Part shown: positions 7,623-31,970 of the stretch, piece after piece
Numbering within the stretch: the stretch's first letter is position 1
Layout: the number at the start of each line of letters is the position of its first letter
Assembly: GCF_000018465.1 (NCBI RefSeq)
Contig: NC_010085.1
Coordinates: 120,001-152,000, forward strand
DNA: 32,000 bases
Reading direction: 5' to 3'
Source of the DNA: Nitrosopumilus maritimus SCM1
Lineage (GTDB): Archaea; Thermoproteota; Nitrososphaeria; Nitrososphaerales; Nitrosopumilaceae
Position numbers and translations under genes: made by a program
Notes under the pieces: model-generated
Told to the model about the DNA's origin: nothing
Seen by the model: the letters and a program-made list of their open reading frames with translations, nothing else
The model's database searches: none

Positions 7623-7630
7623 GATTCTAA

Positions 7631-9448: not shown

Positions 9449-9567
9449 TATTCTTCACTTTTTATTTTCTTAATATCTAATAATGAATTTATCTTCATGT
9501 TTATAATGTAGTTGAAATAGTTCCATGTATGATTGCATGGAATATAGATTCTTTGAAGAGGTAAGAT

Positions 9568-12058: not shown

Positions 12059-12141
12059 ATTTTAATTATCCAGAATTATTTTATATTTGAAACTAAATTT
12101 GTACATGAAAAATAGAAATATTACTAAAAATAGATAAAAGA

Positions 12142-12786: not shown

Positions 12787-12794
12787 GTGATTTT

Positions 12795-18744: not shown

Positions 18745-18745
18745 T

Positions 18746-19729
18746 TTAATATTGACTTGATGGGTGTTGTTTGTGATATTCTATATCATGGTCCATCATT
18801 TTTTTAACTAATTCTTTAAAACTTGTTTTTGGCTCCCAATTCAGATTTTTTCTTGCTTTAGATGCATCCCCAACAAGATCTTCTATGTCTGTTGGTCTCA
18901 TTAGAGATTCATCAATTTCGACAAATTCATGCCAATCTCCTAATCCTGCATATTCTGATGCTATATCTAAAAACTCCTTAATTGAATGGGATTTACCAGT
19001 TGCAATGACATAGTTGTCTGGCTCTTTTTGTTGTAACATAAGCCACATGGCTTCAACATAATCTCCTGCAAAACCCCAATCTCTTTTTGCATTAATATTT
19101 CCCAAATGTAATTTATCTAATGTATTAAATTTGATTTTTGATAATGCATAGGTAATTTTTCTTGTAACAAATTCAAGGCCTCTTAAAGGAGATTCATGAT
19201 TAAATAAAATACCACAACATGCAAAAATATTGTAAGCTTCTTTATAATGATTTGTCATGTGGTGACCAAATACTTTTGCTGCTCCATACGGACTTCGTGG
19301 TCTAAATGGGGATTCTTCATTTTTTATTCCAGGATAATTTCCATACATTTCACTAGATGAAGCTTGATAAAATTTTGCATCTGGAACATTTTCTCTAATT
19401 GCTTCTAATACTCTTAAAACACCAAGACCTGTTATATCTGAAGTTAAAACTGGTTGTTGAAAAGAGGCTCCAACAAATGATTGAGCTCCTAAATTGTATA
19501 TCTCATCAGGTTCTGATTGTTTAATTGCAGCTTGAACTGATCCATAATCTGATAAATCCGCTTTTATGTCCGTCACTTTGTGAAAAATCTCCATTTCTTC
19601 TAATCTTTCAAAACATCTATGACTAGTTCTTCTAAACGTGCCAAACACATTGTATCCTTTCTTAAGCAAAAAATCCGCTAGATATGTGCCATCTTGACCC
19701 GTTAGTCCAAAAATCAACGCATTTTTCAA
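18746..19729 (-). CDS. gmd: GDP-mannose 4,6-dehydratase
   Basis: ALIFGLTGQDGTYLADFLLKKGY, RRTS, QASSSEMYG, PRSPYGAAKVF, GILFNHESPLRG..FVTRKIT, LGNINAKRDWGFAGDYVEAMWLMLQQ. All canonical Gmd blocks are present in order. Confidence 0.9.
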   Translation of the reverse strand: MKNALIFGLTGQDGTYLADFLLKKGYNVFGTFRRTSHRCFERLEEMEIFHKVTDIKADLSDYGSVQAAIKQSEPDEIYNLGAQSFVGASFQQPVLTSDITGLGVLRVLEAIRENVPDAKFYQASSSEMYGNYPGIKNEESPFRPRSPYGAAKVFGHHMTNHYKEAYNIFACCGILFNHESPLRGLEFVTRKITYALSKIKFNTLDKLHLGNINAKRDWGFAGDYVEAMWLMLQQKEPDNYVIATGKSHSIKEFLDIASEYAGLGDWHEFVEIDESLMRPTDIEDLVGDASKARKNLNWEPKTSFKELVKKMMDHDIEYHKQHPSSQY

Positions 19730-20547
19730 TTTACTATCAACCCTGCCTCTGTAATACTCTCTAGAAACTGCCTAAAACCTTTTCCACCATTTTCATGGCC
19801 TTTCCATACTTCTATCGCAAATCCCTTATCTTTATGATTATTTAACATTGGAATAATTTTATCAAATTCCATATTTCCCTCTCCATATTGTAACCCTTCT
19901 CCATCTATATCATCTGCATCTGATAAATGGAAATGATCAACTCTTTTTTCAATTATCTTTAATTGATCTATTAGAGAAATTTGTTTAGTATTACAATACA
20001 GTTGTGCGTGACATAAATCATAGCAAACATTTAGACCCAATTTTTCACAATATTTTTCCATATCATTTGCGTCAAGAAAAACATTTGAATGCCATCTTCC
20101 TCCAAAAAACCAAGCATACGGAGGCATATTCTCCATTAAAAAATTCACTTTACTAATATCCAATTTTTCCACTGCATCAAACATACCATTTTTCATTTTT
20201 TCTTTATCTTCTATGCTAAGTTCAGATAATGAATATCCTCCAGGGTGTACAATTATAGATGGTTTGCCTTGAAATTGTTCATTTAATGACACTGTTTTAT
20301 CAATTGCCTTTTGAATCAATTCAATAGTCTTTTCTTGAGAATGAATTTGGTTTGTTTCTCCAAAACTAACTATATCCAACAATTTTCGCTCAAAATATTC
20401 ATAGCAATGAACAATTAATCTTTGATCAAATTTTTGATCTAATTCTAAATTTAAATCACTATCAGAAAAATGAAATTCTAAAATTTTTGGATTGAATGCC
20501 AACATATCATCCAAATCTTGTTTTCTAACTTTCATTCCTAAAATCAT
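19726..20547 (-). CDS. Xylose-isomerase-like TIM-barrel protein (AP_endonuc_2 family, sugar phosphate isomerase/epimerase-like)
   Basis: The size (273 aa) and the spaced conserved His/Glu/Asp blocks (IIVHPGG, LMENM, YDLCHAQL, HFHLSD, AIEVW) fit this fold. It is sandwiched between NeuB2 and Gmd with 4-bp overlaps on both sides. Confidence 0.55.
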   Translation of the reverse strand: MILGMKVRKQDLDDMLAFNPKILEFHFSDSDLNLELDQKFDQRLIVHCYEYFERKLLDIVSFGETNQIHSQEKTIELIQKAIDKTVSLNEQFQGKPSIIVHPGGYSLSELSIEDKEKMKNGMFDAVEKLDISKVNFLMENMPPYAWFFGGRWHSNVFLDANDMEKYCEKLGLNVCYDLCHAQLYCNTKQISLIDQLKIIEKRVDHFHLSDADDIDGEGLQYGEGNMEFDKIIPMLNNHKDKGFAIEVWKGHENGGKGFRQFLESITEAGLIVN

Positions 20548-21593
20548 AAATCATCATCCTGAAGATAGTCATTTCTTTTAATTTCTCTTTTTGATTTTTT
20601 TCCTAAAATTTCATAATAATATTGTGGAGAAAGTCCTTTAGCTGGACCTTTTATTGCTAAATTATTTTCAGAAAATATTTCATCTTTTTTAATATCATTT
20701 TTTGCAGTAATGCTTTTGCCTAAAACCTCTTTCTGTAAAATTTCTCCCCTGGTCATTTTTTTTATGGGCTTTCCTTTTGCTTTTTCAGCTTCCCTGATAT
20801 CTTTTACTAGTTTTTTAAACTCATCTGGTTCTAATGATGCTGCTTGATCTAAACCTTCCATGGTTTTGTCTAATGTGATATGCCTTTCAACAATTATTGC
20901 TCCTAACATAACTGCAGCTAACGTGCTTACAATCCCTGGTTCATGGCCACTGTAACCAATCAAAACTTGAAATTTTTCTTTTAAGAGTGAAATTAGTTCA
21001 AGATTTAATGTTTCAACTGGAGCTGGATATGTGCTATTACAATGAAGTAAAGCAAATTTGGCATTTTTTTCTTTCATAAAAGAAACTGTTTTTTCTATTT
21101 CATTCATGTTTGACATGCCAGTTGATACAATCAATGGTTTACCTGTTTGAATTAGACTTGATATCAAAGGAAAATTTGTCATATCTGCAGATGCTATTTT
21201 GTAAGCTGGAAGATCAAATTTTTCCAAAAATTCCACACTTGGAATATCCCAAGGTGTGCAAAGAAATGTAATGTGTTTTTCTTTGCAGTACTCGGTTAAT
21301 TCTTTATATGCATCATCATCAAATTCAACTTCATTTAAAACATCTAGAAGAATTTCTAATCCTTGACTTTCAATGTTTGGATCTTTTAGAACATCTTCTC
21401 GATAAATATCATTTAGAGATCTTTTCTGAAACTTTACTGCATTTGCCCCCGCATCTACTGCAACATCAATTAATTTTTTAGCAGTTGTTATGTTGCCGTT
21501 ATGATTGATTCCTATTTCTGCAATGATATATGCAGGTTCTTTAGTGCTTATCCTGTCCTTTCCAATTACTATATCATTTTCATGCTCTGCCAT
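20544..21593 (-). CDS. neuB: NeuB-family nonulosonic acid synthase (paralogue 2, canonical type)
   Basis: IIAEIGINHNGNITTAKKLIDVAVDAGANAVKFQKR is the textbook NeuB N-terminus. GYSGHE and VERHITLD carry the metal-binding His residues, and a C-terminal SAF-like domain (SITAKNDIKKDEIF) is present. Confidence 0.88.
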   Translation of the reverse strand: MAEHENDIVIGKDRISTKEPAYIIAEIGINHNGNITTAKKLIDVAVDAGANAVKFQKRSLNDIYREDVLKDPNIESQGLEILLDVLNEVEFDDDAYKELTEYCKEKHITFLCTPWDIPSVEFLEKFDLPAYKIASADMTNFPLISSLIQTGKPLIVSTGMSNMNEIEKTVSFMKEKNAKFALLHCNSTYPAPVETLNLELISLLKEKFQVLIGYSGHEPGIVSTLAAVMLGAIIVERHITLDKTMEGLDQAASLEPDEFKKLVKDIREAEKAKGKPIKKMTRGEILQKEVLGKSITAKNDIKKDEIFSENNLAIKGPAKGLSPQYYYEILGKKSKREIKRNDYLQDDDL

Positions 21594-21683: not shown

Positions 21684-22691
21684 ATGCAAATTTTAGTAGT
21701 GGGTCTAGGCTCTATGGGAAAACGAAGAATTCGTTGTTTACAAAAACTTGGTTTAAAAAATATTATTGGATTTGATCCAAGACAAGATAGACGAGATGAA
21801 TCTGAAAAACTTTACAAAATTTCAACAGTACCCACAATCAATGATGGCTTAAAACTTAATCCCAAATGTATGATCATCTCTACCCCTCCTGATCTTCATT
21901 ACAAATATGCATTAGTTGCAATGAAAAATAAAATTCATTTTTTCACAGAAGTTAATTTGTCTTCAAATGATGTACAAAAAATTATCAAAAAACTAAATGG
22001 GTTGTCTATATTGGGATTACCTTCAAATACTTTAATCTATCATCCATTGATTAAAAAATTAAAAACTCTAATATCAAAAAACCAAATTGGTAAAACACTA
22101 ACCGTTTATCATCATTTTGGACATTATCTGCCTAATTGGCATCCTTGGGAAGATTATAGGGATTTTTATGTTTCAAAGCGACAAACTGGAGCTGCAAGAG
22201 AAATCGTTCCCTTTGAATTAGTTTGGTTATCGTACATTTTTTCAAGTATAAAATCTGTTTATGGAAGTATTCACAAAGTATCCTCTCTAAAAACAGATAT
22301 TGATGATCTCTATCAAGCAATTATTGAATTTTCAAACGGAATTCAATGCATTTTGGTGATTGATGTAATTTCTGACCCAGCTTTTAGTGAAACTAAGATC
22401 ATAGGCGAAAAAGGTGTTATACTATGTAATCATAATGAAGGTATTTTGAAGATTGGAAAATCATCAAAATGGAAAACTACAAAAATTGAATCTGGTGAAG
22501 TTGCAAAAGGATACAAAGGAAATACTCCTTCAGAATCTCTTTATGTTGCAGAAATAAAAAATTTCTTAGATTCGATTAAACAAAAGAAAAAACCAAATTA
22601 TACTTTTGTAGAAGAATTGAGAATTTTAAAAGTTTTAGATGCAATAGAATTGAGTAATAGAAAGTCCAAAAAAATTGTAATTAAAAAATGA
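21684..22691 (+). CDS. Gfo/Idh/MocA-family oxidoreductase (paralogue 2)
   Basis: It has the N-terminal Rossmann motif ILVVGLGSMGKRRIRCL and a layout similar to 4833-5885. The EKP motif is replaced by TEVN. Confidence 0.65.
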   Translation: MQILVVGLGSMGKRRIRCLQKLGLKNIIGFDPRQDRRDESEKLYKISTVPTINDGLKLNPKCMIISTPPDLHYKYALVAMKNKIHFFTEVNLSSNDVQKIIKKLNGLSILGLPSNTLIYHPLIKKLKTLISKNQIGKTLTVYHHFGHYLPNWHPWEDYRDFYVSKRQTGAAREIVPFELVWLSYIFSSIKSVYGSIHKVSSLKTDIDDLYQAIIEFSNGIQCILVIDVISDPAFSETKIIGEKGVILCNHNEGILKIGKSSKWKTTKIESGEVAKGYKGNTPSESLYVAEIKNFLDSIKQKKKPNYTFVEELRILKVLDAIELSNRKSKKIVIKK

Positions 22692-24052
22692 AACCAAATA
22701 TACTGTTTTTAGTTGTAGACTCTTTACGTTCGGATAAATTTTATGGAGAATCTAAAACATCAATTACTCCGAACCTTGATTCTCTTTTAGAAAACGGAGT
22801 TTATTTTTCTCAGGCAATTAGTTCTGTACCTTCAACATCTCCATCAATGGGAAGTATATTCACTGGACTGTTTCCAATAAAAATTGGAATGGGACCTGAA
22901 TCCTATGAAAAATTAAATCCAAATGTTTCTACTTTTATAGAACATTTTAAAAAAAATGGATATTCAACTTTTGCAACTACTTCAGAGATCAATTCATTTT
23001 TGGGATTAACCGAAGATTTTGATCTGACTCTTCAACAGACTTCTCATAATAATTATTTCAGCCTATTTTCTGGATTGGGGGAAAAAATTACTGAAAAATT
23101 ACGTACTATGAAAAAAGAACCTTGGTTCTTTTATATTCATATTAATGATTTACATCAACCCGTTATTGTACCTGAAAAATACTCTGAAGAAAAATTTGGA
23201 ATAACAGATTACGAAAAAATGCTTTCAGCAATAGATTTTTGGATTGGAAAATTTTTTGAACAAATAGATTTTTCAAAAACTCTAGTAGTTTTAACTGCAG
23301 ATCATGGTGAATATGTTCGCTCACTCCAAATTGATGGAAAAATGATCAATCTTGAATCAAGCTCATCTGAAAAGACCTTGTGGAAGTTGGGGAATAAAAT
23401 TCCCAATTTTCTTTATGGGCCAAAAAGAAAATTATCTTCAATATTACAAAAAACTAGAGATAAAAATCGTCAAAAGAAAATTGAAGAACTTGATCTTTCT
23501 GAATATGAAAAAAGAGTATTATCAATGTCTAGAATGAGTTCAGGTTCTCATGTTTTTGATGATGTGTTAAAAGTTCCATTAGTTTTCAAAGGATTCCCGA
23601 TAAAAAACCCAAAACTAATTTCCCAACAAGTTGGCTTGTTGGACATCTTTCCCACTATTACAGATCTTATTGAAATTCCAAAGATTAATGCAAAAATTGA
23701 TGGTAATAGTTTGTATCCATTGATTCAAAATGAAAAAATTGATGAAAAACCATTATTTATTCAAAGTATGCCGTCAATATCTGATGATAATCTAATTCTT
23801 GTTGGAATTAGAACAAACTCTTTCAAATATTTTCGTGAAAAGAACAACAAAAAGAAAAACAAACTTTTTGATTTGGCAAATGATCCCTTAGAAGAAAAAG
23901 ATATCTCTTCTCAAAAACCAGAGATTGTTTTAAAAATGGAAAAAATTCTCCAAGAATATCTGATCACTGAAAATAATTTTTCTCCAGACTCTTTACAGAA
24001 TGATGAAAGAAAGAAAGTTGAAGACGAATTAAAAAAACTGGGATATCTTTAA
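22688..24052 (+). CDS. Alkaline-phosphatase-superfamily ('sulfatase'-family) protein with a Thr nucleophile; NPP/phosphodiesterase- or phospho(no)transferase-like
   Basis: ILFLVVDSLRSD is the metal-binding first strand, and ITPNLDSL follows it. The nucleophile motif reads T50-S-P-S-M-G-S-I-F-T-G-L-F-P where arylsulfatases have C-x-P-x-R-xxxxTG. It looks closer to the NPP motif T-F-P-N-H-Y-S-I-V-T-G-L-Y-P. LTADHGE is also present. I see no N-terminal TM segment or signal peptide. Confidence 0.7.
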   Translation: MKPNILFLVVDSLRSDKFYGESKTSITPNLDSLLENGVYFSQAISSVPSTSPSMGSIFTGLFPIKIGMGPESYEKLNPNVSTFIEHFKKNGYSTFATTSEINSFLGLTEDFDLTLQQTSHNNYFSLFSGLGEKITEKLRTMKKEPWFFYIHINDLHQPVIVPEKYSEEKFGITDYEKMLSAIDFWIGKFFEQIDFSKTLVVLTADHGEYVRSLQIDGKMINLESSSSEKTLWKLGNKIPNFLYGPKRKLSSILQKTRDKNRQKKIEELDLSEYEKRVLSMSRMSSGSHVFDDVLKVPLVFKGFPIKNPKLISQQVGLLDIFPTITDLIEIPKINAKIDGNSLYPLIQNEKIDEKPLFIQSMPSISDDNLILVGIRTNSFKYFREKNNKKKNKLFDLANDPLEEKDISSQKPEIVLKMEKILQEYLITENNFSPDSLQNDERKKVEDELKKLGYL

Positions 24053-24142
24053 ACACTAAATTTTTTCATGTACTAATTTCTATTATATGTGAGATTTATA
24101 CCAAGAATATAATAGGTAGAAATTATTAAAAAAATTACGTTG

Positions 24143-25516
24143 ATGGAAAAAAAGATTGATTTCAAGCCTGATTCTTATTTGATTCGTTCTGGAAACAATT
24201 TTTTGGGAATTTTAAATGATATTAAACGAAGACCAGAAGATGCTGCAAATGAATTGGGTGTTTCTATTGAAGAAATTAACTCAATAATTTCTGGAAAGCA
24301 AAAAATCTCCCCATCTTTAATTGAAAAAGCCGTAAATATCTGGCCAGTTAATGAAAGAGATTTCTATATTGTTTCCGATGATTGTTCTTCTGGAATCTTA
24401 ATTATGACTTCTCAAGATTCAATCAAATCATCTCGCATTATGGAAAGAGCTGGAAAACCATATTATGAATATCGAGATACTGCTATGAGCAAAACTGCTC
24501 CTTTTAGGCCTGAATGGATTTTGGAATTATGCAAAGTTGAAAATAATGACCCTGAAAATCCAAAAGCGCAATGGAATAATGGACATTTCATGCATCAATT
24601 TACATATTTTATCGGAGAAGTAAATTTCTATTACAAAGATCCTGAAGGAAAAAAACATGTCGCAATTATGAATACTGGTGATTCAATGTATATTACTCCA
24701 TTTACTCCTCACACCTTTACTACAAGAGATGGTGCATCTCAAAATGGTTTAATTTTAGCATTAACTTATGGGAGTAAACTTACTGGTGATATTCAGCAAG
24801 AATTGTCGTCATTATCGCTTGATTGTGGAAGTCAATATGCATTAGATTTTACTAATCACGAAAATGCCAGTTTATCATTATTAGAATATTATTTTGAATT
24901 ATCAAATCTGACTAAAGAAAAATTTGCAAAACGAACAAACTTTTCTATGGAAACACTTGCTGATTTCTTTACAAAAAAGAAATTACCAACTTTTGATGAA
25001 CTTAAGATTATTGCTAAAGCTCTAAATGTAAATTCTAGAGATTTAATGCCTAATGATTTGACTGAATCTAAAGTTATTGTAAAAACTCATGATCAATGTG
25101 ATCATTGGAAATACCCTGAATCTGGAAATTATGAATTTTACGAACTTGCATCAACCACCGCTTTGCCTCACTCCAAAGCATTTGAAATTGATGTTTCATC
25201 ATCAGAAGATCTCAATCTTGATCTGAAAGTTGGATTACATCAATATGTGTATAATATTGGCGATTCTGCACTGACAATTAATTGGAATTATGAGAATAAA
25301 ACATATCAGAAATCATTGAATCCTGGCGATTCTGCTTATATCAAACCTTTTGTTCCTCACAATTTCCGTGGAAATGGCAAAATTCTAATTTTGAGAATTG
25401 GTGGAAAAATTTCTGGTGATTCACAACGAGAATTATCATTTGTAGGAAGGGAAAATACTCAACGAGCAATTTCTGAAACAATGCAATGGTTTGATCCAAA
25501 AGGTTCAAACTCTTAA
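24143..25516 (+). CDS. mpnS: Methylphosphonate synthase (non-heme Fe(II) 2-hydroxyethylphosphonate oxygenase, HEPD/HppE family)
   Basis: The architecture is a tandem (HTH-like + cupin) x2. Numbering from ATG 24143, the metal ligands are His148 (24584-24586), Gln152 (24596-24598) and His190 (24710-24712). Phe162 and Ile184 are also present, matching my recollection of the published N. maritimus MPnS structure. It is clustered with ppm, ppd and an Fe-ADH. The track's TTG at 24140 adds one residue and is probably not the start. Confidence 0.9.
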   Translation: MEKKIDFKPDSYLIRSGNNFLGILNDIKRRPEDAANELGVSIEEINSIISGKQKISPSLIEKAVNIWPVNERDFYIVSDDCSSGILIMTSQDSIKSSRIMERAGKPYYEYRDTAMSKTAPFRPEWILELCKVENNDPENPKAQWNNGHFMHQFTYFIGEVNFYYKDPEGKKHVAIMNTGDSMYITPFTPHTFTTRDGASQNGLILALTYGSKLTGDIQQELSSLSLDCGSQYALDFTNHENASLSLLEYYFELSNLTKEKFAKRTNFSMETLADFFTKKKLPTFDELKIIAKALNVNSRDLMPNDLTESKVIVKTHDQCDHWKYPESGNYEFYELASTTALPHSKAFEIDVSSSEDLNLDLKVGLHQYVYNIGDSALTINWNYENKTYQKSLNPGDSAYIKPFVPHNFRGNGKILILRIGGKISGDSQRELSFVGRENTQRAISETMQWFDPKGSNS

Positions 25517-25546
25517 TTTTAATTATAGTTATCTAAATTTCATTTT

Positions 25547-26671
25547 ATGGCAAAAGAAAATTTGATCATCATAATGATTGATGGTGGAAGATTTGATTAT
25601 GGTTTAAATTCAAAAGTTTTTCAGGAAGTAGAAAAAACTTCAGTATTTTTTTCAAATTCTATAACTTATGGGCCCCATACAATTGCTGCAATGCATGCAG
25701 TATTTAGTGGATGTTATGGAACTAGAACAGGAACAAACAGTTATTGGTCTACATATGATTTTAAAAAAGAAAGTTTTGTCACACTCACTGAATATTTGTC
25801 TTCTAATGGATATTTTACATCTGCAGATCTGATTAATGAGTTAGTAGTTCCTAAACAAGGATTTGATGAATATATCGTACATGATGAAATTAATGACGAT
25901 TTAACTTTAAGACACAAAAAAATCTTATCAAAAATTCAAACTAAAAATCAAAAGGGTCAACCATCTTTTCTTTATTTACATTATAGTAAAATTCACACAG
26001 GTATAATGAATGAGGTCTTAAAAAAATATGATAATTTTAGTGACGAATTCTTTGATAATCCTGATCAAAACAAAAATAGATATGAAAAATTATTTATTTC
26101 TGCTGAAAATTATTTAAAAACAATTTTAGAAGAAATTAAAAAACTAGGATTGGATGATAATTCTCTTATTCTAATTATGTCTGATCATGGTGTAAGTGTA
26201 GGTGAAAAATTTGGTGAACGAGCTTATGGAGCATTCTGTTATGATTACACGTTAAAAACAATCACCCATTTCATTTCAAAAAAATTTCAATCAAAAAGAA
26301 TTACACAGCAAGTACGCACAATAGATTTCATGCCTACAATTTTACAATTTTTAAAGATCCCATTAGATAATACCAAAGAACCATTAGACGGGGTTTCTTT
26401 GATGCCCTTGATCAATAACAAAAAAATTGATGAACAATTTGCCTATTCTGAAACAGGTAATCCTCTAAAAGAAAAACAACCTCCAAAAATTCCAAATGTT
26501 ATGTCTATTCGTAACTCAAATTGGAAACTAATATACAATTTACACAATGATTCCAAAGAAATGTACAATTTGCTTGAAGATCCGTTAGAATTAAAAAATT
26601 TGATTGGAACAAATAACGAAATTGAATCCATGCTTTGGAATGAATTACTCAAAATCCAACAATCTAACTAA
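25547..26671 (+). CDS. Alkaline-phosphatase-superfamily ('sulfatase'-family) protein with a Thr nucleophile (paralogue 2)
   Basis: LIIIMIDGGRFDY is the first strand with the metal-binding Asp. The nucleophile-position motif is T45-I-A-A-M-H-A-V-F-S-G, with Thr for Cys and Met for Arg, the same substitutions as in 22688-24052. MSDHGVS is also present. It lies 30 nt downstream of mpnS on the same strand. Confidence 0.65.
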   Translation: MAKENLIIIMIDGGRFDYGLNSKVFQEVEKTSVFFSNSITYGPHTIAAMHAVFSGCYGTRTGTNSYWSTYDFKKESFVTLTEYLSSNGYFTSADLINELVVPKQGFDEYIVHDEINDDLTLRHKKILSKIQTKNQKGQPSFLYLHYSKIHTGIMNEVLKKYDNFSDEFFDNPDQNKNRYEKLFISAENYLKTILEEIKKLGLDDNSLILIMSDHGVSVGEKFGERAYGAFCYDYTLKTITHFISKKFQSKRITQQVRTIDFMPTILQFLKIPLDNTKEPLDGVSLMPLINNKKIDEQFAYSETGNPLKEKQPPKIPNVMSIRNSNWKLIYNLHNDSKEMYNLLEDPLELKNLIGTNNEIESMLWNELLKIQQSN

Positions 26672-26672
26672 T

Positions 26673-27416
26673 TTATTTAAATAATTCTTCAGCTCTGTTT
26701 AGATCCTGTTTTGTATCAATTTCACACCATTTACCTGAAATGAATATTGGTGAAACTTGAATTGAATTATTAATTAATTCTTGAATCATATCTGTTAGAT
26801 ATCCTTTTTCTAAAGAAACTGCATTATGGAATTTTCCCGTATGGTTTTTTTGTAAGTAATCAATTTTTTCTAAAAATACTTTTGTTCCATGTTCACTCAT
26901 TTTTATAATTCCTAGAAATTCCCCAACAATATTTGAAGTACTTTGAATATTCTTTTTAATTTCAACAATGTTATTTTTTTTATCTAACAATACATTCTCT
27001 GCTTCAGAAAATGGATGTTCTGTTCTCCCTTCATAAGATTTTTTCCAGTCTAAATCAATTGCAATAGCAATATCTTTTGTTGTGTTAAGTATTTGATGAA
27101 TAATATTTTCATCAAAAATTATATCCGAATACAAAATTATTACTTCTCCTTGTAAGAAATTTTTAGCCACCATCAAACTTCCTAAAATATCATGCTTTTC
27201 ATTTTCAAAATCTTTGACTATTTTCATTCCTTTATTATCAAATTGATTATGTTTTCCTGAAATAACTATGATTTCTGAAATATTATTTGATTCAAATGCT
27301 TTAATTTGTCTCTCTAAGATAGTTTTTCCATTTACAGGAATTAGTGATTTTGGAATTTCTTTAAATTCTTTCGAAATTCTTTGACCTTTTCCTGCTGCAA
27401 TTATGATTACTTTCAT
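26673..27416 (-). CDS. Nucleotidyltransferase (NTP_transferase fold, LicC/PntC-like; candidate phosphonate cytidylyltransferase)
   Basis: It has the N-terminal MKVIIIAAGKGQRIS (G-x-G-x-R) signature and is 247 aa. It is the last gene of the ppm-ppdA-ppdB operon, with a 7-nt gap. The substrate is inferred from context only. Confidence 0.7.
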   Translation of the reverse strand: MKVIIIAAGKGQRISKEFKEIPKSLIPVNGKTILERQIKAFESNNISEIIVISGKHNQFDNKGMKIVKDFENEKHDILGSLMVAKNFLQGEVIILYSDIIFDENIIHQILNTTKDIAIAIDLDWKKSYEGRTEHPFSEAENVLLDKKNNIVEIKKNIQSTSNIVGEFLGIIKMSEHGTKVFLEKIDYLQKNHTGKFHNAVSLEKGYLTDMIQELINNSIQVSPIFISGKWCEIDTKQDLNRAEELFK

Positions 27417-27423
27417 GAATATT

Positions 27424-27972
27424 CTATAATGATTTTTTTACTCTATCTCTAATATCTTTAGGTTTCCAGATTACTCTTTTGCTTCTTTCTTTACTTGTAG
27501 AAATTTTTACCAACAAAAAGATCGGTCCATTGAGTCTCTTAATTTTTTTCAACATACTTTCTAATTGATTTTTGGATTTAGCTGTAAATGTTGTGTAGTT
27601 ACCAATTTTTGCAATTTTTTCTAAATGAATTTTTGAAGAATTTGTAGGCTGACCTCCAGTTGATTCATGACTACTATTATCAAAAACTACATGGATCAAA
27701 TTTTTTGGTTTCATACTACCAATAGTTACAATTGAACCTAAATTCATCAAAATATTCCCATCTCCATCAAACACAAAAACTCGTTTTTTTGGATTTTTTA
27801 TTGCTAATCCTAATCCTATTGATGATGCCAATCCCATTGACCCGATCATGTAAAAATTTGATTCCTTATCACATACTTCAAACAAATCTCTACTCATAAA
27901 GCCATTAGCTGAAACAATTGGAGAATTTTTTATATTTCTAGCTATGGTTGCCACTGCTTCTTTTCTAATCAT
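27424..27972 (-). CDS. ppd: Phosphonopyruvate decarboxylase, beta subunit (ThDP-binding C-terminal domain, ComE-like)
   Basis: It has the ThDP motif FDGDGNILMNLGS...VVFDNSSHESTGGQ (GDG-x~25-N). It overlaps the alpha-subunit gene by 8 nt and lies directly downstream of ppm. Confidence 0.85.
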   Translation of the reverse strand: MIRKEAVATIARNIKNSPIVSANGFMSRDLFEVCDKESNFYMIGSMGLASSIGLGLAIKNPKKRVFVFDGDGNILMNLGSIVTIGSMKPKNLIHVVFDNSSHESTGGQPTNSSKIHLEKIAKIGNYTTFTAKSKNQLESMLKKIKRLNGPIFLLVKISTSKERSKRVIWKPKDIRDRVKKSL

Positions 27973-28453
27973 GAAATAATCTCCGAATTACTAAGGCACA
28001 AGGTTTGTTGTTTTTCAAATTTTCTATTGCCCAATCACAACAAGATTTCCAATTAGAGTCAGTTAACACCTTTGATTTTAAACCAATAATTTTTAATAAA
28101 TCAGGTTGAATTTTTCCAATTTTTAGATGTTCAGGAGCATCATCTGATAAGTACCCTCTCCATCCTATCAAAAAAATTATTGGAATTTCGTATAATTGAA
28201 CTAATGATGTAATTGTACTTATGGAATTGGCAAATCCAGCATTTTGCATGAATACTAATGATGAACTTTTTGATATAGTAGTACCAGTTGCTATTCCAAT
28301 AGCTTCTTCTTCTCTAGTTGTAATGATGGAATTTTTATTTTTAATAGATTCGTCAATAAAGTGTTTCAGTGTAGAATCTGGGACCCCTATAAAATTTTCA
28401 ATTTTTTTCTTTTTTAGATAATGAAATAATTTTCTTTGATTTTTTTCATTCAA
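27965..28453 (-). CDS. ppd: Phosphonopyruvate decarboxylase, alpha subunit (ThDP pyrimidine-binding N-terminal domain, ComD-like)
   Basis: GVPDSTLKHF and REEEAIGIATG (catalytic Glu) are typical of the N-terminal domain of ThDP decarboxylases. A 4-bp overlap joins it to ppm. Confidence 0.85.
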   Translation of the reverse strand: MNEKNQRKLFHYLKKKKIENFIGVPDSTLKHFIDESIKNKNSIITTREEEAIGIATGTTISKSSSLVFMQNAGFANSISTITSLVQLYEIPIIFLIGWRGYLSDDAPEHLKIGKIQPDLLKIIGLKSKVLTDSNWKSCCDWAIENLKNNKPCALVIRRLFHD

Positions 28454-29349
28454 TTTATGTAACCCAATTTTTTAAGATTTTTTTCTATATCTGTTTCTTG
28501 TTTTTTTATTTCATACATTTCTTGCAGTTTAAAAATTTCTTCCATTGTAGTCATATTTGATTTTATTTGACTGAGACTTTTAGCTTTAGATAGTTGCTCC
28601 AGATGTTCTTTCATTGCTAAATGTGCTACTCGAAGTGATTGATTTGCATAAATTGCTATTCTTATTTTGTGTTTTTCTAATTCATCAATAGTTACATTTG
28701 GATATGATGTTGGAATTGCAATTATGGGTATATCTCCGTCCCACAAATCACAAAATTCAAAAATCTCATCAGGAGTTTTACTCTTTGAATGAATTAAAAT
28801 CGCATCTGCCCCAGCTTTTTTGTATGCATTAGCTCTTTTCAATGCTTCATCTACCCCTAATCCAGCTATTAATGCCTCCACTCTGGCAATGATCATAAAA
28901 TTTTCATTTACTTTAGCATTTTTAGCTGCAATTAATTTTGCAACAAAATCTTTTTCTGATAACAATTGTTGATTACCGTTTTCCAATAAACTGTTTTGTT
29001 TAGGAAAAATCTTATCCTCAATACTAACTGCAGCCACTCCTGCACTTTCATATTTTTTTACCATGTGACTCACATTGCTCGGTCCACCAAACCCTGTATC
29101 GCAATCTGCAATAACTGGAATTGAGCAAGCATCAGTCATATTAGATGCTACAGAAAGAAATTCTGTCATTGTAAGAATACTGGCATCTGGTAATGCATGA
29201 GTTGCAGAAATTGCAAAACTCCCGGCCCAAATTGCATCAAAACCGCTCAATTCCACTAATTTTGCCGACATTGCATCAAATGCACCAGCAACTTTCAAAA
29301 TTGATTTTTGATTAAGTTGAGAGTTTAGTATGTTTGCACCATCATTCAT
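28450..29349 (-). CDS. ppm: Phosphoenolpyruvate phosphomutase (PEP mutase)
   Basis: It belongs to the isocitrate-lyase/PEP-mutase superfamily (ADCDTGFGG). It carries the PepM-specific signature EDK-x5-NS as E111-D-K-I-F-P-K-Q-N-S120 (nt 28990-29019, checked codon by codon). Confidence 0.92.
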   Translation of the reverse strand: MNDGANILNSQLNQKSILKVAGAFDAMSAKLVELSGFDAIWAGSFAISATHALPDASILTMTEFLSVASNMTDACSIPVIADCDTGFGGPSNVSHMVKKYESAGVAAVSIEDKIFPKQNSLLENGNQQLLSEKDFVAKLIAAKNAKVNENFMIIARVEALIAGLGVDEALKRANAYKKAGADAILIHSKSKTPDEIFEFCDLWDGDIPIIAIPTSYPNVTIDELEKHKIRIAIYANQSLRVAHLAMKEHLEQLSKAKSLSQIKSNMTTMEEIFKLQEMYEIKKQETDIEKNLKKLGYIN

Positions 29350-29411: not shown

Positions 29412-30347
29412 ATGTGGACCATTAAACAGCCTCCAAAAATCATTTTTGGTAAAAATTGTGTATCTGAGTTTATTTTTCCGACAAAGTGTTTAGTTGTAAC
29501 ATCTAAAGGAGCAAAATCTAGAGGATGGCTTGATTATTGTGGGTTAAATGATCAAATGATTTTTAATAATGTTGAACCAAACCCTTCAATCGAAACAACA
29601 GAAAAAATTATTTCAGAATTCCAAAATTCTGATTTTACACATATTGTTGGTATTGGAGGGGGCAGCTCAATGGATGTTGCCAAATATTGTGGTTTTAAAA
29701 TGAATAAACAAAAACTCATGATTCCAACTACTTTTGGAAGCGGTAGTGAAGTAACCCGTATTTCCGTATTGAAGGTTAATGGAAAGAAAAAAAGTTTTCA
29801 TGATGATGGAATCTTTTCTGATACTGCATTAATTGATTCATTTTTTCTTGAAAATTCTACACCTAAAATTTTTAAGAATTCTGTCATAGATGCATGTGCA
29901 CAATGTACTGAAGCATATGATAGTAAATCATCAAATCCATATACGAAGTTTTTTTGTAATCAAGCTTTTGAATTGTTAGAAGAAGGAATTCTTACAAATA
30001 ATAATGAAAAAATTGTATTGGGATCCTTATTTGATGGATTGGGATTTGGAAATTCTTCTACTACTTTAGGACATGCACTGTCCTATGTTTTTTCAAATGA
30101 GGGAATTTCTCATGGTCATGCTTTAGCATTTACTACTTCTGCTGCTCACAAATTTAACAAATCAAAATATTTTGAACGATTTGAAAAACTAGTTTCTTTC
30201 TTAGGTTTTGAACCCATCACATTAGAGCAATCATTAGATCATGCTACAGAAACAATCTTACCTGATAAAAAACACCTTGATAATAACCCAATTCCTGTAT
30301 CGAAAGACGACATCTATAACTTGTTAAAAACAATTATTTCAAAATAA
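29412..30347 (+). CDS. pdh: Iron-containing alcohol dehydrogenase (phosphonoacetaldehyde reductase, making 2-hydroxyethylphosphonate)
   Basis: It has the Fe-ADH motifs GIGGGSSMDVAKY and LGHALSY...ISHGHALA (metal-binding His residues). It is divergent from ppm. At 311 aa it is compact compared with typical ~380-aa family members. Substrate assignment comes from context and analogy with PhpC/FomC. Confidence 0.8.
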   Translation: MWTIKQPPKIIFGKNCVSEFIFPTKCLVVTSKGAKSRGWLDYCGLNDQMIFNNVEPNPSIETTEKIISEFQNSDFTHIVGIGGGSSMDVAKYCGFKMNKQKLMIPTTFGSGSEVTRISVLKVNGKKKSFHDDGIFSDTALIDSFFLENSTPKIFKNSVIDACAQCTEAYDSKSSNPYTKFFCNQAFELLEEGILTNNNEKIVLGSLFDGLGFGNSSTTLGHALSYVFSNEGISHGHALAFTTSAAHKFNKSKYFERFEKLVSFLGFEPITLEQSLDHATETILPDKKHLDNNPIPVSKDDIYNLLKTIISK

Positions 30348-30348: not shown

Positions 30349-30645
30349 TTACTCATCAAAAATTATAACTTCATTTTGATTTTCGATGACTCTATAATTT
30401 TTTAAATCTCTACCTGGATTAGTTACACAATTTCCTTTAGAAATATCAAATTCCCATCCATGACCCCCACAAGTTAATGTTTGTCCTTTAACAAATCCCA
30501 ATTCTAATGGCCATTTGGCATGAGGACAGATTCCACTAACTGCAAAAATTTGTTCCCCGTTATTAAAAACAATAATTTTTGGACTGACTGATACTTCGAC
30601 TAATTTACCAATAGGAATATCTTGTTTTTTTACAGTGAATTTCAT
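30349..30645 (-). CDS. Rieske [2Fe-2S] domain protein
   Basis: C40-P-H42 ... C59-G-G-H62, with 16 residues between H42 and C59, fits the canonical C-x-H-x15-17-C-x2-H. The protein is 98 aa and starts 2 nt after the stop of the upstream MBL-fold gene. Confidence 0.85.
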   Translation of the reverse strand: MKFTVKKQDIPIGKLVEVSVSPKIIVFNNGEQIFAVSGICPHAKWPLELGFVKGQTLTCGGHGWEFDISKGNCVTNPGRDLKNYRVIENQNEVIIFDE

Positions 30646-30647
30646 AA

Positions 30648-31970
30648 TTAATGTAATCTATTATAGATTTTGTATATATTGCTAATTCTTGTTGGATCTG
30701 GATCATATAGCAAATTAATGAAATGTTCGTTCCATTGATCAGGTTTTCTATCCCCTTGCCACCTAGCTGATAAAAATAATGTTTCCCAAAGTAGTTCATT
30801 ATTAACTGCTTTTTGAACTAAATGTGCAGGGATTTTCATCCAATAATTCCAATCATCCGTTTTTCCTTCTGTTACAAAAGAACCTGATTCCTTATCTTTA
30901 GAAATATCTAAAATATACTCTCCTCCATTTTTACCGTCTGCAATCAGTTGAACTTTCATATCGATATGTTTTCGTGCAACAGGGTTTTCAGAGATTATTT
31001 TGTTGAAATAATCATATATCTCATTAGATAATTTTTGTGAAGCTTCTCCTTCTTCCTTCCATCGTCTATTAAGATCTTCTTGAACTTGGATTGAAAACTC
31101 ATTTACTACATCTGTCTTGTCTGATGAAAAAATTGGATTATTATTTTTGGTGTGTGTGCCATCAATTGAAATTTCATCATCTGCTGCCATGGCTACCACT
31201 TCTGTTCCTAAATTTCCACTATTATCCCACGCCTTTTTTGGTTCATCAGGACATCCAAAAACTGAGATGGGATAGTTTAGTTTTAGTTGAGATTCATGAG
31301 GAAATAATGGGCCTCCAGCATACGGAATAGCAAATTTTGGTTTTATAGTATTTACATAATTTACAAATCCATTGATTTTATTGTCTTTTCTTTTAATAGC
31401 AATTTCATCTCGTTTCTCTTTTGAATAATTATATGCATCTGGATACCAGTTTGCCACAGAATACATGAAAAATCCAATATCTGGTTTTGCAGCATTTACT
31501 TTCTTAAGGGATTCAAAATCCATTTTACAATCAGTCTGACAAAAAACTGTTCCTTCTTTGCTTTTGATAAGTAAAGCGGAATCCTCAAACATCAAATCTG
31601 GGTTTTTAATAGATGTGATTTCTAAACCCTCATTAATTTTTTCAGGTTTCCAAGAGTCAAGAACAGTGATGTTAGAAAATCCTAATTCTTTGATAGCATT
31701 ATGAAATCTATTTGTTGGAAAATTACAAATATAGATTTGTGTTTTTTTATCAAATTGACATAATGATTCTGCTTGAAAATGATCTTCATGTTCATGAGAA
31801 ATGTAAATTGCGTCAACGTCAGTAGGAATGTTTTTCTTTGTAGCTGGTTCTCTTCTAAGTGTATACCATGTGTTTACATTGCAAGGACCAACAATCCATG
31901 GATCAACAATTATTCTAAAATTATTCGTTTCAATTAGTGTACAAGCTTGTCCTAAAAATCTTACAAACAT
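30648..31970 (-). CDS. MBL-fold (Lactamase_B_3-like) protein; resembles the catalytic domain of CMP-N-acetylneuraminate hydroxylase (CMAH)
   Basis: It has H59-E-H-E-D-H64 (HxHxDH) preceded by IVDPWIVGP. By eye it is collinear over its full length with vertebrate CMAH as I remember it: DPWLIGP; IYISHLHSDH; ...CPFAGYF versus AIPYAGGP; GLLWDELYIG versus ELLWETLFLS. This needs a real alignment. Confidence 0.6.
   Translation of the reverse strand: MFVRFLGQACTLIETNNFRIIVDPWIVGPCNVNTWYTLRREPATKKNIPTDVDAIYISHEHEDHFQAESLCQFDKKTQIYICNFPTNRFHNAIKELGFSNITVLDSWKPEKINEGLEITSIKNPDLMFEDSALLIKSKEGTVFCQTDCKMDFESLKKVNAAKPDIGFFMYSVANWYPDAYNYSKEKRDEIAIKRKDNKINGFVNYVNTIKPKFAIPYAGGPLFPHESQLKLNYPISVFGCPDEPKKAWDNSGNLGTEVVAMAADDEISIDGTHTKNNNPIFSSDKTDVVNEFSIQVQEDLNRRWKEEGEASQKLSNEIYDYFNKIISENPVARKHIDMKVQLIADGKNGGEYILDISKDKESGSFVTEGKTDDWNYWMKIPAHLVQKAVNNELLWETLFLSARWQGDRKPDQWNEHFINLLYDPDPTRISNIYKIYNRLH

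What the first reader, a model, noticed from the sequence alone, without database searches (positions are those of the whole stretch)
30349..31970. Rieske protein plus MBL-fold protein look like a split, order-swapped homologue of animal CMP-sialic acid hydroxylase (CMAH)
Animal CMAH converts CMP-Neu5Ac to CMP-Neu5Gc. As I recall, it consists of an N-terminal Rieske domain fused to a metallo-beta-lactamase-like catalytic domain. Here a 440-aa MBL-fold protein (HEHEDH) is followed 2 nt later by a 98-aa Rieske protein (CPH...CGGH). By eye the MBL protein tracks my memory of vertebrate CMAH along its whole length. The matches are IVDPWIVGP/LLDPWLIGP, AIYISHEHEDH/LIYISHLHSDH, KPKFAIPYAGGP/QPRIYCPFAGYF and NNELLWETLFLS/KNGLLWDELYIG. 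The island contains two NulO synthases and two CMP-sugar synthetases, so a CMP-NulO N-acyl hydroxylase would fit well. It would make a glycolyl-type or otherwise hydroxylated NulO in an archaeon. Because the pair sits next to the phosphonate genes, a role in oxidising a phosphonate or its carrier is an alternative.
Basis: inference. Interest (0 to 1): 0.7.

Follow-up and report, generated by a model that had tools for sequence, protein, structure and literature searches.

The report
Split CMAH/NamH-type sugar hydroxylase in Nitrosopumilus
Two adjacent genes in the marine archaeon Nitrosopumilus maritimus encode, as separate proteins, the catalytic and the iron-sulfur parts of the enzyme family that turns N-acetyl sugars into N-glycolyl sugars in animals (CMAH) and mycobacteria (NamH); they most likely decorate the cell-surface glycan, but the substrate has not been shown.

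Summary
A 440-aa MBL-fold ORF (30648-31970, minus strand) is followed after TAA-tt-ATG by a 98-aa Rieske ORF (30349-30645). The homology to CMAH is real and covers the whole length: BLASTP against Tasmanian devil CMAH gives E=8e-14, and profile-profile comparison gives E=1.3e-14 to 1.3e-37 over 385-448 columns. The profile matches NamH-like bacterial proteins even better (E=1.8e-33), and their domain order (MBL then Rieske) equals the gene order here. So the pair is a split member of the CMAH/NamH superfamily and is swapped only relative to CMAH. The window is N. maritimus SCM1, and the MpnS gene in it matches PDB 6b9s.

The function is inferred. Three bacterial relatives examined in detail sit inside nonulosonic-acid (NulO) operons, and the closest bacterial representative follows a PseB-like dehydratase. 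In Nitrosopumilaceae the pair has a conserved glycosyltransferase on one side. On the other side is a variable nucleotidyltransferase plus sulfatase-family module, with phosphonate genes in 12 of 17 loci.

The best reading is a two-component monooxygenase that hydroxylates the N-acyl group of an activated amino sugar, probably a CMP-NulO. Prokaryotic CMAH homologues, archaeal ones included, were already noted in the literature, and JGI labels close homologues "UDP-MurNAc hydroxylase". Interest is moderate.

The parts
30648..31970 (-). Catalytic subunit, 440 aa. It has an N-terminal metallo-beta-lactamase-fold domain (about residues 1-280) and a C-terminal SCP2-like (Rv3818-like) domain. It is homologous over its full length to the non-Rieske part of CMAH and NamH.
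   Evidence: ORF. Pfam. 100% identical to an N. maritimus protein. BLASTP against CMAH E=8e-14. hhalign against CMAH E=1.3e-14 and 1.3e-37. hhalign against NamH-like proteins E=1.8e-33. AF2 model pLDDT 93.7, pTM 0.92.
31779..31796 (-). HEHEDH (residues 59-64), the H-x-H-x-D-H metal-binding motif. H59, H61, D63 and H64, together with D147, are invariant across the 32-sequence family alignment. D130 is nearly invariant.
   Evidence: Invariant columns. In some searches these residues align to CMAH H195/H197/D199/H200, D287 and D270. That they are metal ligands is inferred from knowledge of the MBL fold.
30681..31025 (-). SCP2-like C-terminal domain (residues 316-430), including the conserved LLWETLFLSxRWxxDRxPD segment.
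   Evidence: The Pfam SCP2_Rv3818 hit at 5e-5 is below the gathering score. The same family is precomputed for many orthologues. The domain aligns with CMAH residues about 440-556 and with NamH-like proteins.
30349..30645 (-). Rieske [2Fe-2S] ferredoxin-like subunit, 98 aa. It corresponds to the Rieske domain that is fused C-terminally in NamH-type proteins and N-terminally in CMAH.
   Evidence: Pfam Rieske 8.8e-16. NCBIfam dioxygenase ferredoxin subunits. PDB Rieske ferredoxins such as BphF, TodB and T4moC. BLASTP to the CMAH Rieske domain E=1e-4. BLASTP to the C-terminal Rieske domain of a fused Nitrosopumilus homologue E=4e-10.
30460..30528 (-). Rieske cluster-ligand motifs: C40-P-H42, then 16 residues, then C59-G-G-H62.
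   Evidence: Read from the translation and the sequence.
30646..30650 (-). Junction of the two ORFs: TAA stop, 2 nt, then ATG. This spacing suggests co-transcription and translational coupling.
   Evidence: The same MBL-then-Rieske gene pair is found in all thaumarchaeal relatives that have enough flank.
29412..30347 (+). Context, not part of the operon: the Fe-dependent alcohol dehydrogenase of the methylphosphonate cluster. It is convergent with the Rieske gene, and the two ends lie 1 nt apart.
   Evidence: The convergent arrangement means it is a separate transcription unit.
22688..29349 (.). Context, and a candidate functional partner by inference only: a head-group module. It holds an alkaline-phosphatase-superfamily 'sulfatase' (22688-24052), MpnS (24140-25516), a second 'sulfatase' (25547-26671), an NTP-transferase (26673-27416), split Ppd (27424-28453) and Ppm (28450-29349).
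   Evidence: The 'sulfatases' lack the formylglycine motif. A sulfatase-family plus NTP-transferase module lies within 10 kb in 15 of 17 thaumarchaeal loci.
18001..21593 (-). Context, and a candidate source of substrate by inference only: a NulO operon. It holds NeuB (20544-21593), a TIM-barrel protein, a GMD-like dehydratase and a CMP-NulO synthetase (18001-18744).

Best explanation
The two ORFs encode a two-component, split member of the CMAH/NamH superfamily of Rieske-dependent monooxygenases with an MBL-fold non-heme-iron catalytic domain.

Shown: the 440-aa protein carries the catalytic MBL-fold domain and the SCP2-like domain of CMAH/NamH. The 98-aa protein is the Rieske [2Fe-2S] module, which is fused to the catalytic part in NamH (C-terminal) and in CMAH (N-terminal). 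The two genes are 2 nt apart and always occur together in Nitrosopumilaceae.

Inferred mechanism: the Rieske protein receives electrons from an unidentified reductase and passes them one at a time to the iron site, formed by H59, H61, D63, H64, D130 and D147. That site activates O2 and hydroxylates the methyl carbon of an N-acetyl (N-acyl) group on a nucleotide-activated amino sugar, giving an N-glycolyl (hydroxyacyl) sugar for the surface glycan. This follows the chemistry of CMAH (CMP-Neu5Ac to CMP-Neu5Gc) and NamH (UDP-MurNAc to UDP-MurNGlyc).

The most likely substrate in N. maritimus is a CMP-activated 5,7-diamino nonulosonic acid made by the neuB and CMP-synthetase genes of the same island. 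I put about 0.35-0.4 on that specific substrate and about 0.55 on the general mechanism.
For: Homology:
- Searches show significant full-length similarity to CMAH.
- One search shows the same for NamH-like proteins.
- Searches cover the Rieske domain.
- One search gives the Pfam hits, including the Rv3818-like SCP2 domain.

Architecture:
- 82 of 170 related loci encode MBL-SCP2-Rieske fusions and 3 encode Rieske-MBL fusions.
- About 15 of the top 150 representatives have the match starting after an N-terminal extension of roughly 85-140 residues, as a CMAH-order fusion would.
- Fusion in relatives is strong evidence that the two proteins here work together.
- The closest non-thaumarchaeal representative, P0202, is also split in the same order.

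Context pointing to sugar and NulO chemistry:
- P0059 (CMAH domain order) sits inside a legionaminic-acid-type operon, between NeuB and NeuC.
- The Okeania homologue lies between PIG-L/methyltransferase and NeuB/CMP-synthetase.
- The Pelagibacteraceae homologue is directly downstream of NeuB.
- P0202 is directly downstream of a PseB-like dehydratase.
- A distant fused paralogue in another Nitrosopumilus lineage lies next to NeuB and NeuC.
- The window carries two NulO gene sets.
- In Nitrosopumilaceae a GT2 glycosyltransferase is the conserved divergent neighbour.

The best solved-structure sequence match of the MBL part is a non-heme diiron monooxygenase, 8a90 (5.6e-9), which is consistent with oxygenase rather than hydrolase chemistry.
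Against: - No activity, substrate or product has been measured, and no N-glycolyl NulO is known from archaea. In 2017 it was said not to have been described in bacteria either (PMC5378307).
- Within Nitrosopumilaceae, NeuB lies within 10 kb in only 2 of 17 loci, whereas Ppm does in 12 of 17.
- The subclade at about 60% identity has neither NeuB nor Ppm within 10 kb.
- Deep branches of the family tree are poorly resolved. Bootstrap support is 0.38 for grouping the thaumarchaeal clade with the NulO-linked/CMAH clades, so transferring function from those clades is weak.
- No reductase partner was identified.
- Whether the metal site holds one or two irons is unknown.
Confidence: 0.55

Rival explanations
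1. A phosphonate-directed oxygenase. On this reading the pair hydroxylates a phosphonate or its CMP-activated form (2-hydroxyethylphosphonate, methylphosphonate or CMP-MPn) as a tailoring step of the neighbouring phosphonate pathway.
For: - The pair abuts the phosphonate cluster in the window.
- In the thaumarchaeal clade at 69% identity or above, an alcohol dehydrogenase of a phosphonate cluster lies 0.3 kb beyond the Rieske gene in about 20 loci.
- Ppm is within 10 kb in 12 of 17 loci with enough flank. These include two different cluster types: Fe-ADH with MpnS, and Zn-ADH with AsnS but no MpnS.
- A distantly related fused paralogue also flanks the MPn cluster in another Nitrosopumilus lineage.
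Against: - The pair is convergent with the phosphonate genes, not in their operon.
- The pair stays constant while the head-group genes vary. It persists where Ppm is replaced by PPDK-like and GATase genes (L174) and where there is no Ppm at all (L001, L088 and the 60% clade).
- None of the bacterial relatives' loci has Ppm nearby.
- The two characterised family members act on N-acetyl groups of nucleotide sugars.
- The position may simply mark the edge of a hypervariable island next to a conserved block of IF-2B, epimerase, SIS and GT2.
Confidence: 0.12
2. The same chemistry on a different sugar. The enzyme hydroxylates the N-acetyl group of a UDP-activated HexNAc or 2-acetamido uronic acid (for example UDP-ManNAcA or UDP-GlcNAcA) rather than a CMP-NulO.
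For: - NamH acts on a UDP-sugar, and the profile is closer to NamH-like proteins than to CMAH.
- The 60% subclade sits among UDP-sugar dehydrogenases, an Asn-synthase-like amidotransferase, an epimerase and GT4 genes, with no NeuB.
- The conserved neighbour in the main clade is a GT2, next to an epimerase and SIS.
- The pair is present whatever the variable island content.
Against: - The non-thaumarchaeal unfused and CMAH-order relatives that were examined (P0059, Okeania, Pelagibacteraceae) are embedded in NulO operons.
- N. maritimus has two NulO pathways within 30 kb.
- No UDP-sugar dehydrogenase was found among the ORFs annotated in the window.
Confidence: 0.2
3. An ordinary Zn-dependent MBL-fold hydrolase, as current NCBI and UniRef names say, that merely sits next to an unrelated Rieske ferredoxin.
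For: - The database names are 'MBL fold metallo-hydrolase' and 'Zn-dependent hydrolase'.
- Foldseek against PDB returns only generic MBL hydrolases.
- A Binatia-type sister clade lacks any Rieske domain and sits beside sulfatase-family and phosphodiesterase-family genes.
Against: - Homology to CMAH/NamH covers the full length, including the family-specific C-terminal domain.
- The Rieske module is fused to the MBL part in about half of all relatives and is always adjacent in Nitrosopumilaceae.
- The canonical motif-3 and motif-5 histidines of hydrolytic MBLs are not among the conserved columns, while Asp130 and Asp147 are.
- The best PDB sequence hit is a diiron monooxygenase.
Confidence: 0.03

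Closest known systems
NamH (Rv3818), the UDP-N-acetylmuramic acid hydroxylase of mycobacteria and related actinomycetes
   Same: It has the same three modules in the same order: an MBL/UlaG-like domain, an SCP2-like domain named after Rv3818 in Pfam, and a Rieske domain (PMC10050696). The profile-profile match to NamH-like proteins is the strongest found: E=1.8e-33 over 411 columns. JGI labels close homologues of the window protein 'UDP-MurNAc hydroxylase'.
   Different: Here the Rieske module is a separate 98-aa protein. Identity is only about 20-28%. Archaea make no murein (established knowledge), so UDP-MurNAc cannot be the substrate and the JGI name cannot be literally right.
Animal CMAH, the CMP-N-acetylneuraminic acid hydroxylase (EC 1.14.18.2)
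   Same: The catalytic MBL and C-terminal regions are homologous over their full length, and so is the Rieske domain. H-x-H-x-D-H and two Asp residues are conserved. A link to nine-carbon sugar acid pathways is seen in several prokaryotic relatives.
   Different: CMAH is one polypeptide with the Rieske domain at the N-terminus. Identity is 22% over the MBL domain. CMAH uses cytochrome b5 and b5 reductase (own knowledge), and no equivalent was seen here. N. maritimus probably makes Leg/Pse-type NulOs rather than Neu5Ac. Orthology is not resolved (bootstrap 0.38).
Prokaryotic CMAH-order homologues embedded in legionaminic-acid-type operons (for example P0059, loci L005/L006; uncharacterised)
   Same: They belong to the same superfamily, sit in a NulO gene context, and are uncharacterised surface-glycan tailoring candidates.
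   Different: They are fused and have an N-terminal Rieske domain. Identity to the window protein is 27% over half its length.
CmlA/FrsH-type MBL-fold non-heme diiron monooxygenases (PDB 8a90) and Rieske-ferredoxin-dependent diiron hydroxylases such as T4moC/T4moH
   Same: 8a90 shows an MBL fold used for O2 activation, and it is the best PDB sequence hit (5.6e-9, residues 3-140). A small Rieske ferredoxin that donates electrons to a separate iron hydroxylase is the T4moC arrangement, and T4moC is among the PDB hits of the 98-aa protein.
   Different: Only the N-terminal part of the MBL domain matches 8a90. Naming 8a90 a CmlA/FrsH-type enzyme is from memory; the database calls it only a 'non-heme diiron monooxygenase'. 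CmlA-type enzymes act on carrier-protein-bound amino acids (own knowledge) and have no Rieske partner. T4mo hydroxylase is a ferritin-like four-helix-bundle protein, not an MBL.

Membership tests
CMAH/NamH superfamily (Rieske + MBL-fold + SCP2-like hydroxylases) | MBL-fold catalytic domain with a conserved H-x-H-x-D-H | tested here: met
   Pfam Lactamase_B_3 at 5.5e-13. HEHEDH lies at residues 59-64 and is invariant in 32 family members. It aligns to CMAH HMHSDH.
CMAH/NamH superfamily (Rieske + MBL-fold + SCP2-like hydroxylases) | Significant similarity to characterised members beyond the generic metal motif, over the whole catalytic region | tested here: met
   BLASTP E=8e-14 over 217 residues. 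hhalign against vertebrate CMAH: 98.3% and E=1.3e-14 with thaumarchaeal sequences only, 99.95% and E=1.3e-37 with the wider family. hhalign against NamH-like proteins: 99.9% and E=1.8e-33.
CMAH/NamH superfamily (Rieske + MBL-fold + SCP2-like hydroxylases) | C-terminal Rv3818-like SCP2 domain | tested here: met
   The single-sequence Pfam hit (5e-5, 23.9 bits) is below the cut-off of 28.2. However, PF25451 is precomputed for many orthologues, and the profile alignments run through this domain in both CMAH and NamH-like proteins.
CMAH/NamH superfamily (Rieske + MBL-fold + SCP2-like hydroxylases) | Rieske [2Fe-2S] domain on the same polypeptide | tested here: not met
   The Rieske module is a separate 98-aa ORF 2 nt downstream. 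It is homologous to the fused domains. This is the feature that makes the pair a split variant.
CMAH/NamH superfamily (Rieske + MBL-fold + SCP2-like hydroxylases) | O2- and reductant-dependent hydroxylation of the N-acetyl methyl group of a nucleotide sugar | not testable with these tools
   This needs an enzyme assay or glycan analysis.
CMAH proper (EC 1.14.18.2) | N-terminal Rieske domain and orthology to deuterostome CMAH | tested here: not met
   The gene order is MBL then Rieske. The NJ tree places the thaumarchaeal clade outside the clade of CMAH plus N-Rieske prokaryotes, and deep nodes have weak support (0.38-0.78).
CMAH proper (EC 1.14.18.2) | CMP-Neu5Ac as substrate | not testable with these tools
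   The island encodes NeuB-family synthases and CMP-sugar synthetases together with PseB-like, DegT and formyltransferase genes. This suggests Leg/Pse-type NulOs, but their identity was not established.
NamH (UDP-MurNAc hydroxylase) | Domain order: N-terminal MBL/UlaG, C-terminal Rieske | tested here: met
   This is met at the level of gene order. The NamH architecture is taken from PMC10050696.
NamH (UDP-MurNAc hydroxylase) | UDP-MurNAc (a peptidoglycan precursor) as substrate | not testable with these tools
   Not assayed. By established knowledge Nitrosopumilus has no murein, so this substrate is implausible, and no mur genes were found among the ORFs annotated in the window. The pair is therefore filed under the superfamily, not as NamH.

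The most novel reading that the evidence does not exclude
The hydroxylase creates the attachment point for the ocean's methylphosphonate. On this reading it converts an N-acetyl group on a surface sugar (NulO) into N-glycolyl. The new primary hydroxyl is then esterified with CMP-activated methylphosphonate, or with other phospho(no) head groups in other strains, by the neighbouring alkaline-phosphatase-superfamily 'sulfatase-like' transferases.

This would explain several observations:
- The pair is constant while the head-group genes next to it vary: MPn, a Zn-ADH/AsnS phosphonate type, or a PPDK-like type without Ppm.
- A non-orthologous fused paralogue sits between NeuB/NeuC and the MPn genes in another Nitrosopumilus lineage.
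- A Rieske-less sister clade in Binatia-type bacteria has a sulfatase-family gene immediately downstream in 15 of 25 loci.
Probability: 0.12. Interest if true: 0.8.

Novelty: new variant of a known kind. Interest (0 to 1): 0.45.

Why it matters
Nitrosopumilus-type ammonia oxidisers are among the most abundant cells in the ocean. Their methylphosphonate-bearing surface polymer is the proposed source of aerobic marine methane. The sugar that carries the phosphonate, and the chemistry of the island around mpnS, are still undefined.

A CMAH/NamH-type hydroxylase beside that cluster predicts a concrete and easily testable modification: a +16 Da N-glycolyl or hydroxyacyl sugar on the archaeal surface glycan. 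N-glycolyl nonulosonic acids have not been established in prokaryotes.

A naturally split enzyme, with a small soluble Rieske protein and a 440-aa catalytic protein that models with high confidence, could also be a tractable system. No solved structure of CMAH or NamH appeared in the PDB searches here, and the metal centre and electron path of these medically relevant enzymes could be worked out on it.

Full report
**1. The observation**

The ORF list shows a 440-aa ORF at 30648..31970 and a 98-aa ORF at 30349..30645, both on the minus strand.

The large protein has HEHEDH at residues 59-64. The small one has C40-P-H42, then 16 residues, then C59-G-G-H62. Pfam gives Lactamase_B_3 (5.5e-13) and a sub-threshold hit to SCP2_Rv3818 (5e-5) for the large protein, and Rieske (8.8e-16) for the small one. 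NCBIfam places the small protein among the Rieske ferredoxin subunits of dioxygenases, and so do its PDB hits (BphF, TodB, T4moC).

- There are two NeuB genes and two CTP_transf_3 CMP-sugar synthetases, plus many amino-sugar tailoring genes.
- There is a full methylphosphonate cluster: Ppm, a split Ppd, Fe-ADH, an NTP-transferase, two sulfatase-family proteins and MpnS.
- The 458-aa protein at 24140-25516 matches PDB 6b9s, methylphosphonate synthase (1049.8 bits over its whole length).
- The 440-aa protein is 100% identical to an NCBI protein of Nitrosopumilus maritimus on a contig of 1,645,259 bp. The window is therefore the surface-glycan island of N. maritimus SCM1.

**2. Is it a CMAH homologue?**

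It is, and the similarity goes well beyond the metal motif. The family profile did not reach animal sequences through the word index. I therefore retrieved authentic, source-named vertebrate CMAH sequences, using a recalled mouse sequence only as bait.

| Comparison | Result |
|---|---|
| BLASTP, window protein against Tasmanian devil CMAH | E=8e-14, residues 3-219 against 139-360 |
| hhalign, 21 thaumarchaeal split-type proteins against 14 vertebrate CMAHs | probability 98.3%, E=1.3e-14, 385 columns, residues 1-419 against CMAH 136-556 |
| hhalign, with more distant relatives added to the query | probability 99.95%, E=1.3e-37, 448 columns |
| BLASTP, Rieske ORF against the CMAH Rieske domain | E=1e-4 |
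| BLASTP, Rieske ORF against the C-terminal Rieske domain of a fused Nitrosopumilus homologue | E=4e-10 |

**3. 'Order-swapped' needs correcting**

Mycobacterial NamH (Rv3818), the other characterised member of the family, has an N-terminal MBL/UlaG domain and a C-terminal Rieske domain (PMC10050696).

Among 170 related loci fetched from genomes and metagenomes:
- 82 encode MBL-SCP2-Rieske fusions of about 510-550 aa.
- 3 encode Rieske-MBL fusions in the CMAH order.
- 42 have a separate adjacent Rieske gene.
- 43 have none nearby.

The thaumarchaeal profile matches the NamH-like fused proteins better than it matches CMAH (E=1.8e-33 over 411 columns). The pair is best described as a split form of the NamH-type arrangement within the CMAH/NamH superfamily.

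JGI's KO-based label for close homologues is 'UDP-MurNAc hydroxylase'. This cannot be literally correct in an organism without murein.

The exhaustive HMMER search found 2,080 representative clusters at E<=1e-3 but only 17 at E<=1e-30. The closest one outside Thaumarchaeota (P0202, 30% identity, from a 58% GC bacterium) is also split in the same order and follows a PseB-like dehydratase.

**4. Structure**

The AF2 model is confident (pLDDT 93.7, pTM 0.92). It shows an alpha-beta/beta-alpha MBL core and a mixed C-terminal domain. Foldseek against PDB returns only generic MBL hydrolases for the N-terminal domain, and no solved CMAH or NamH structure appeared. By sequence, the best solved relative is a non-heme diiron monooxygenase, 8a90.

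Across the family the invariant polar residues are H59, H61, D63, H64 and D147, with D130 nearly invariant. They align to CMAH H195, H197, D199, H200, D287 and D270. The canonical motif-3 and motif-5 histidines of hydrolytic MBLs are not conserved. A carboxylate-rich His/Asp site fits redox-active iron. That is an inference, not a measurement.

**5. What does it act on?**

Three lines of neighbourhood evidence bear on this.

(a) *Relatives outside Thaumarchaeota.*
- The CMAH-order protein P0059 lies inside a legionaminic-acid-type operon. The gene order is PglF-like, DegT, PglD-like, NeuB, the hydroxylase, NeuC-like, NTP-transferase, CMP-synthetase.
- The Okeania homologue lies between PIG-L/methyltransferase genes and NeuB/CMP-synthetase.
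- The Pelagibacteraceae homologue follows NeuB directly.
- P0202 follows a PseB-like dehydratase.
- None of the bacterial relatives' loci has Ppm nearby.

(b) *A fused paralogue in another Nitrosopumilus lineage.* It shares only 28-31% identity with the window protein. It lies between NeuB/NeuC and a hexapeptide acetyltransferase followed by the MPn cluster.

(c) *The split-type clade in Nitrosopumilaceae.*
- The left flank is conserved: IF-2B, an epimerase, SIS/PGI and a divergent GT2 about 0.2 kb away, seen in most loci that have enough upstream flank (Pfam).
- The right flank is variable and convergent. It is either Fe-ADH with the MPn cluster, or Zn-ADH, NTP-transferase, Asn-synthase-like, Ppm and Ppd without MpnS, or a methyltransferase, PPDK-like, GATase set without any Ppm, or NulO genes.
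- Among 17 loci with at least 7 kb downstream, counts within 10 kb are as follows:

| Feature within 10 kb | Loci (of 17) |
|---|---|
| Sulfatase-family gene plus NTP-transferase | 15 |
| Ppm | 12 |
| MpnS | 5 |
| NeuB | 2 |

- A subclade at about 60% identity sits among UDP-sugar dehydrogenases, an Asn-synthase-like gene, an epimerase, GT4s and a radical-SAM gene, with neither NeuB nor Ppm within 10 kb.

Some of the 17 loci are duplicate fetches of the same contig.

**6. Reading of this evidence**

The family chemistry (N-acetyl to N-glycolyl on a nucleotide sugar) and every neighbourhood point to tailoring of cell-surface glycans. A CMP-NulO is the single most likely substrate in N. maritimus. 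The NulO-embedded relatives support this, and so do the two NulO pathways in the island.

The thaumarchaeal neighbourhoods alone do not prove it. A UDP-HexNAc(A) substrate remains a serious alternative.

A direct role on the phosphonate is less likely, for four reasons:
- The pair is transcribed convergently to the phosphonate genes.
- It is constant while the head-group pathway changes or lacks Ppm.
- No bacterial relative is linked to Ppm.
- The adjacency may simply reflect the pair's position at the edge of a hypervariable island.

One pattern is still unexplained and worth following. CMAH-like MBL genes recur next to alkaline-phosphatase-superfamily 'sulfatase' genes. This is seen in 15 of 17 thaumarchaeal loci and, independently, in 15 of 25 loci of a Rieske-less Binatia-type clade, where the sulfatase-family gene lies within 162 bp downstream on the same strand. 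These 'sulfatases' lack the formylglycine motif. They look like phospho(no)-transferases or diesterases rather than sulfatases.

This suggests the most novel reading: the hydroxylase makes the hydroxyl to which methylphosphonate, or another head group, is esterified. I give that about 0.12.

**7. Novelty**

[quoted passage not shown] KO-based annotation already labels this family. In 2017, N-glycolyl NulOs were said not to have been described in bacteria (PMC5378307). My literature searches found no paper connecting this pair with Nitrosopumilus, NulOs or phosphonates.

What is new:
- the split two-component architecture;
- its conservation across marine Nitrosopumilaceae;
- its constant position beside the variable phospho(no) head-group module;
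- the resulting testable prediction of a hydroxyacyl sugar.

I rate it a new variant of a known kind, of moderate interest (0.45).

**8. Limits**

- No fold comparison with a CMAH or NamH model was possible, because the libraries were unavailable.
- No genome-level co-occurrence could be computed.
- Deep phylogeny is unresolved.
- No reductase partner was identified.
- All functional statements are inferences from homology and gene context.

Noticed in passing
window 22688-24052 and 25547-26671 (also L021 11277-12665): The two 'sulfatase'-family proteins flanking MpnS, and the Binatia one, lack the C/S-x-P/A-x-R formylglycine signature. They have Ser/Thr at that position. They look like alkaline-phosphatase-superfamily phospho(no)transferases or diesterases rather than sulfatases.
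   Followed up: partly
L007-L053 (Binatia-type loci), e.g. L021 8817-16886: A Rieske-less sister clade of about 419 aa sits in an operon with the gene order GT4, MBL, sulfatase-family, phosphodiesterase-family, PMT_2, GT2. In 15 of 25 loci a sulfatase-family gene lies within 162 bp downstream on the same strand. The function of this clade, and how it would obtain electrons, is unknown.
   Followed up: partly
window 7275-13818: This is a carrier-protein-dependent acylation module inside the NulO island. It holds a PPTase (7275-7622), an HMGL-like aldolase (9568-10626), an AMP-binding ligase (10601-12058), a cyclase (12142-12786), a small ORF with an acyl-carrier-like 'IDSF' motif (12711-13049, no Pfam hit) and an aminoglycoside-N-acetyltransferase-like protein (13021-13818). 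This suggests an unusual N-acyl group on an amino sugar.
   Followed up: no
window 21684-24052: The GFO/IDH/MocA sugar oxidoreductase gene overlaps the first sulfatase-family gene by 4 nt. They therefore lie in one operon with MpnS, and this operon is divergent from the NeuB (20544-21593) operon. The NulO and methylphosphonate genes are physically interleaved.
   Followed up: no
L167, L172, L173 (metagenome contigs of Nitrosopumilaceae): This is a second type of thaumarchaeal phosphonate cluster without MpnS. Its genes are Zn-ADH, one or two NTP-transferases, a GATase/Asn-synthase-like amidotransferase, Ppm, split Ppd and two sulfatase-family genes. L172 also has NUDIX and TauD-like dioxygenase genes. 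It occupies the same chromosomal slot as the MPn cluster. Its product is unknown.
   Followed up: partly
L174 6589-13832: In the same slot a third variant lacks Ppm altogether. Its genes are a methyltransferase, an 809-aa PPDK_N/PEP-utilizer protein, a GATase, an NTP-transferase and two sulfatase-family genes. Most of them are co-directional with the MBL-Rieske pair.
   Followed up: no
L003/L004/L028/L029 (Nitrosopumilus and Nitrosarchaeum MAGs): A different, fused (C-terminal Rieske) family member of 519-520 aa, only 28-31% identical to the window protein, flanks the MPn cluster on the opposite side, next to NeuB and NeuC. In these loci the canonical GT2-MBL-Rieske slot is empty: the order there runs Fe-ADH, SIS, IF-2B. 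This looks like a paralogous replacement.
   Followed up: partly
window 27424-28453: Phosphonopyruvate decarboxylase is encoded as two overlapping ORFs (162 aa and 182 aa, with an 8-nt overlap). They correspond to the N- and C-terminal halves of the bacterial enzyme and resemble the sulfopyruvate decarboxylase alpha and beta subunits.
   Followed up: no
L001 1841-3787: In a related thaumarchaeal contig, a 648-aa intein-containing gene (Intein_splicing, LAGLIDADG) lies next to a Cdc6-like gene, just outside the conserved block of epimerase, SIS and GT2.
   Followed up: no
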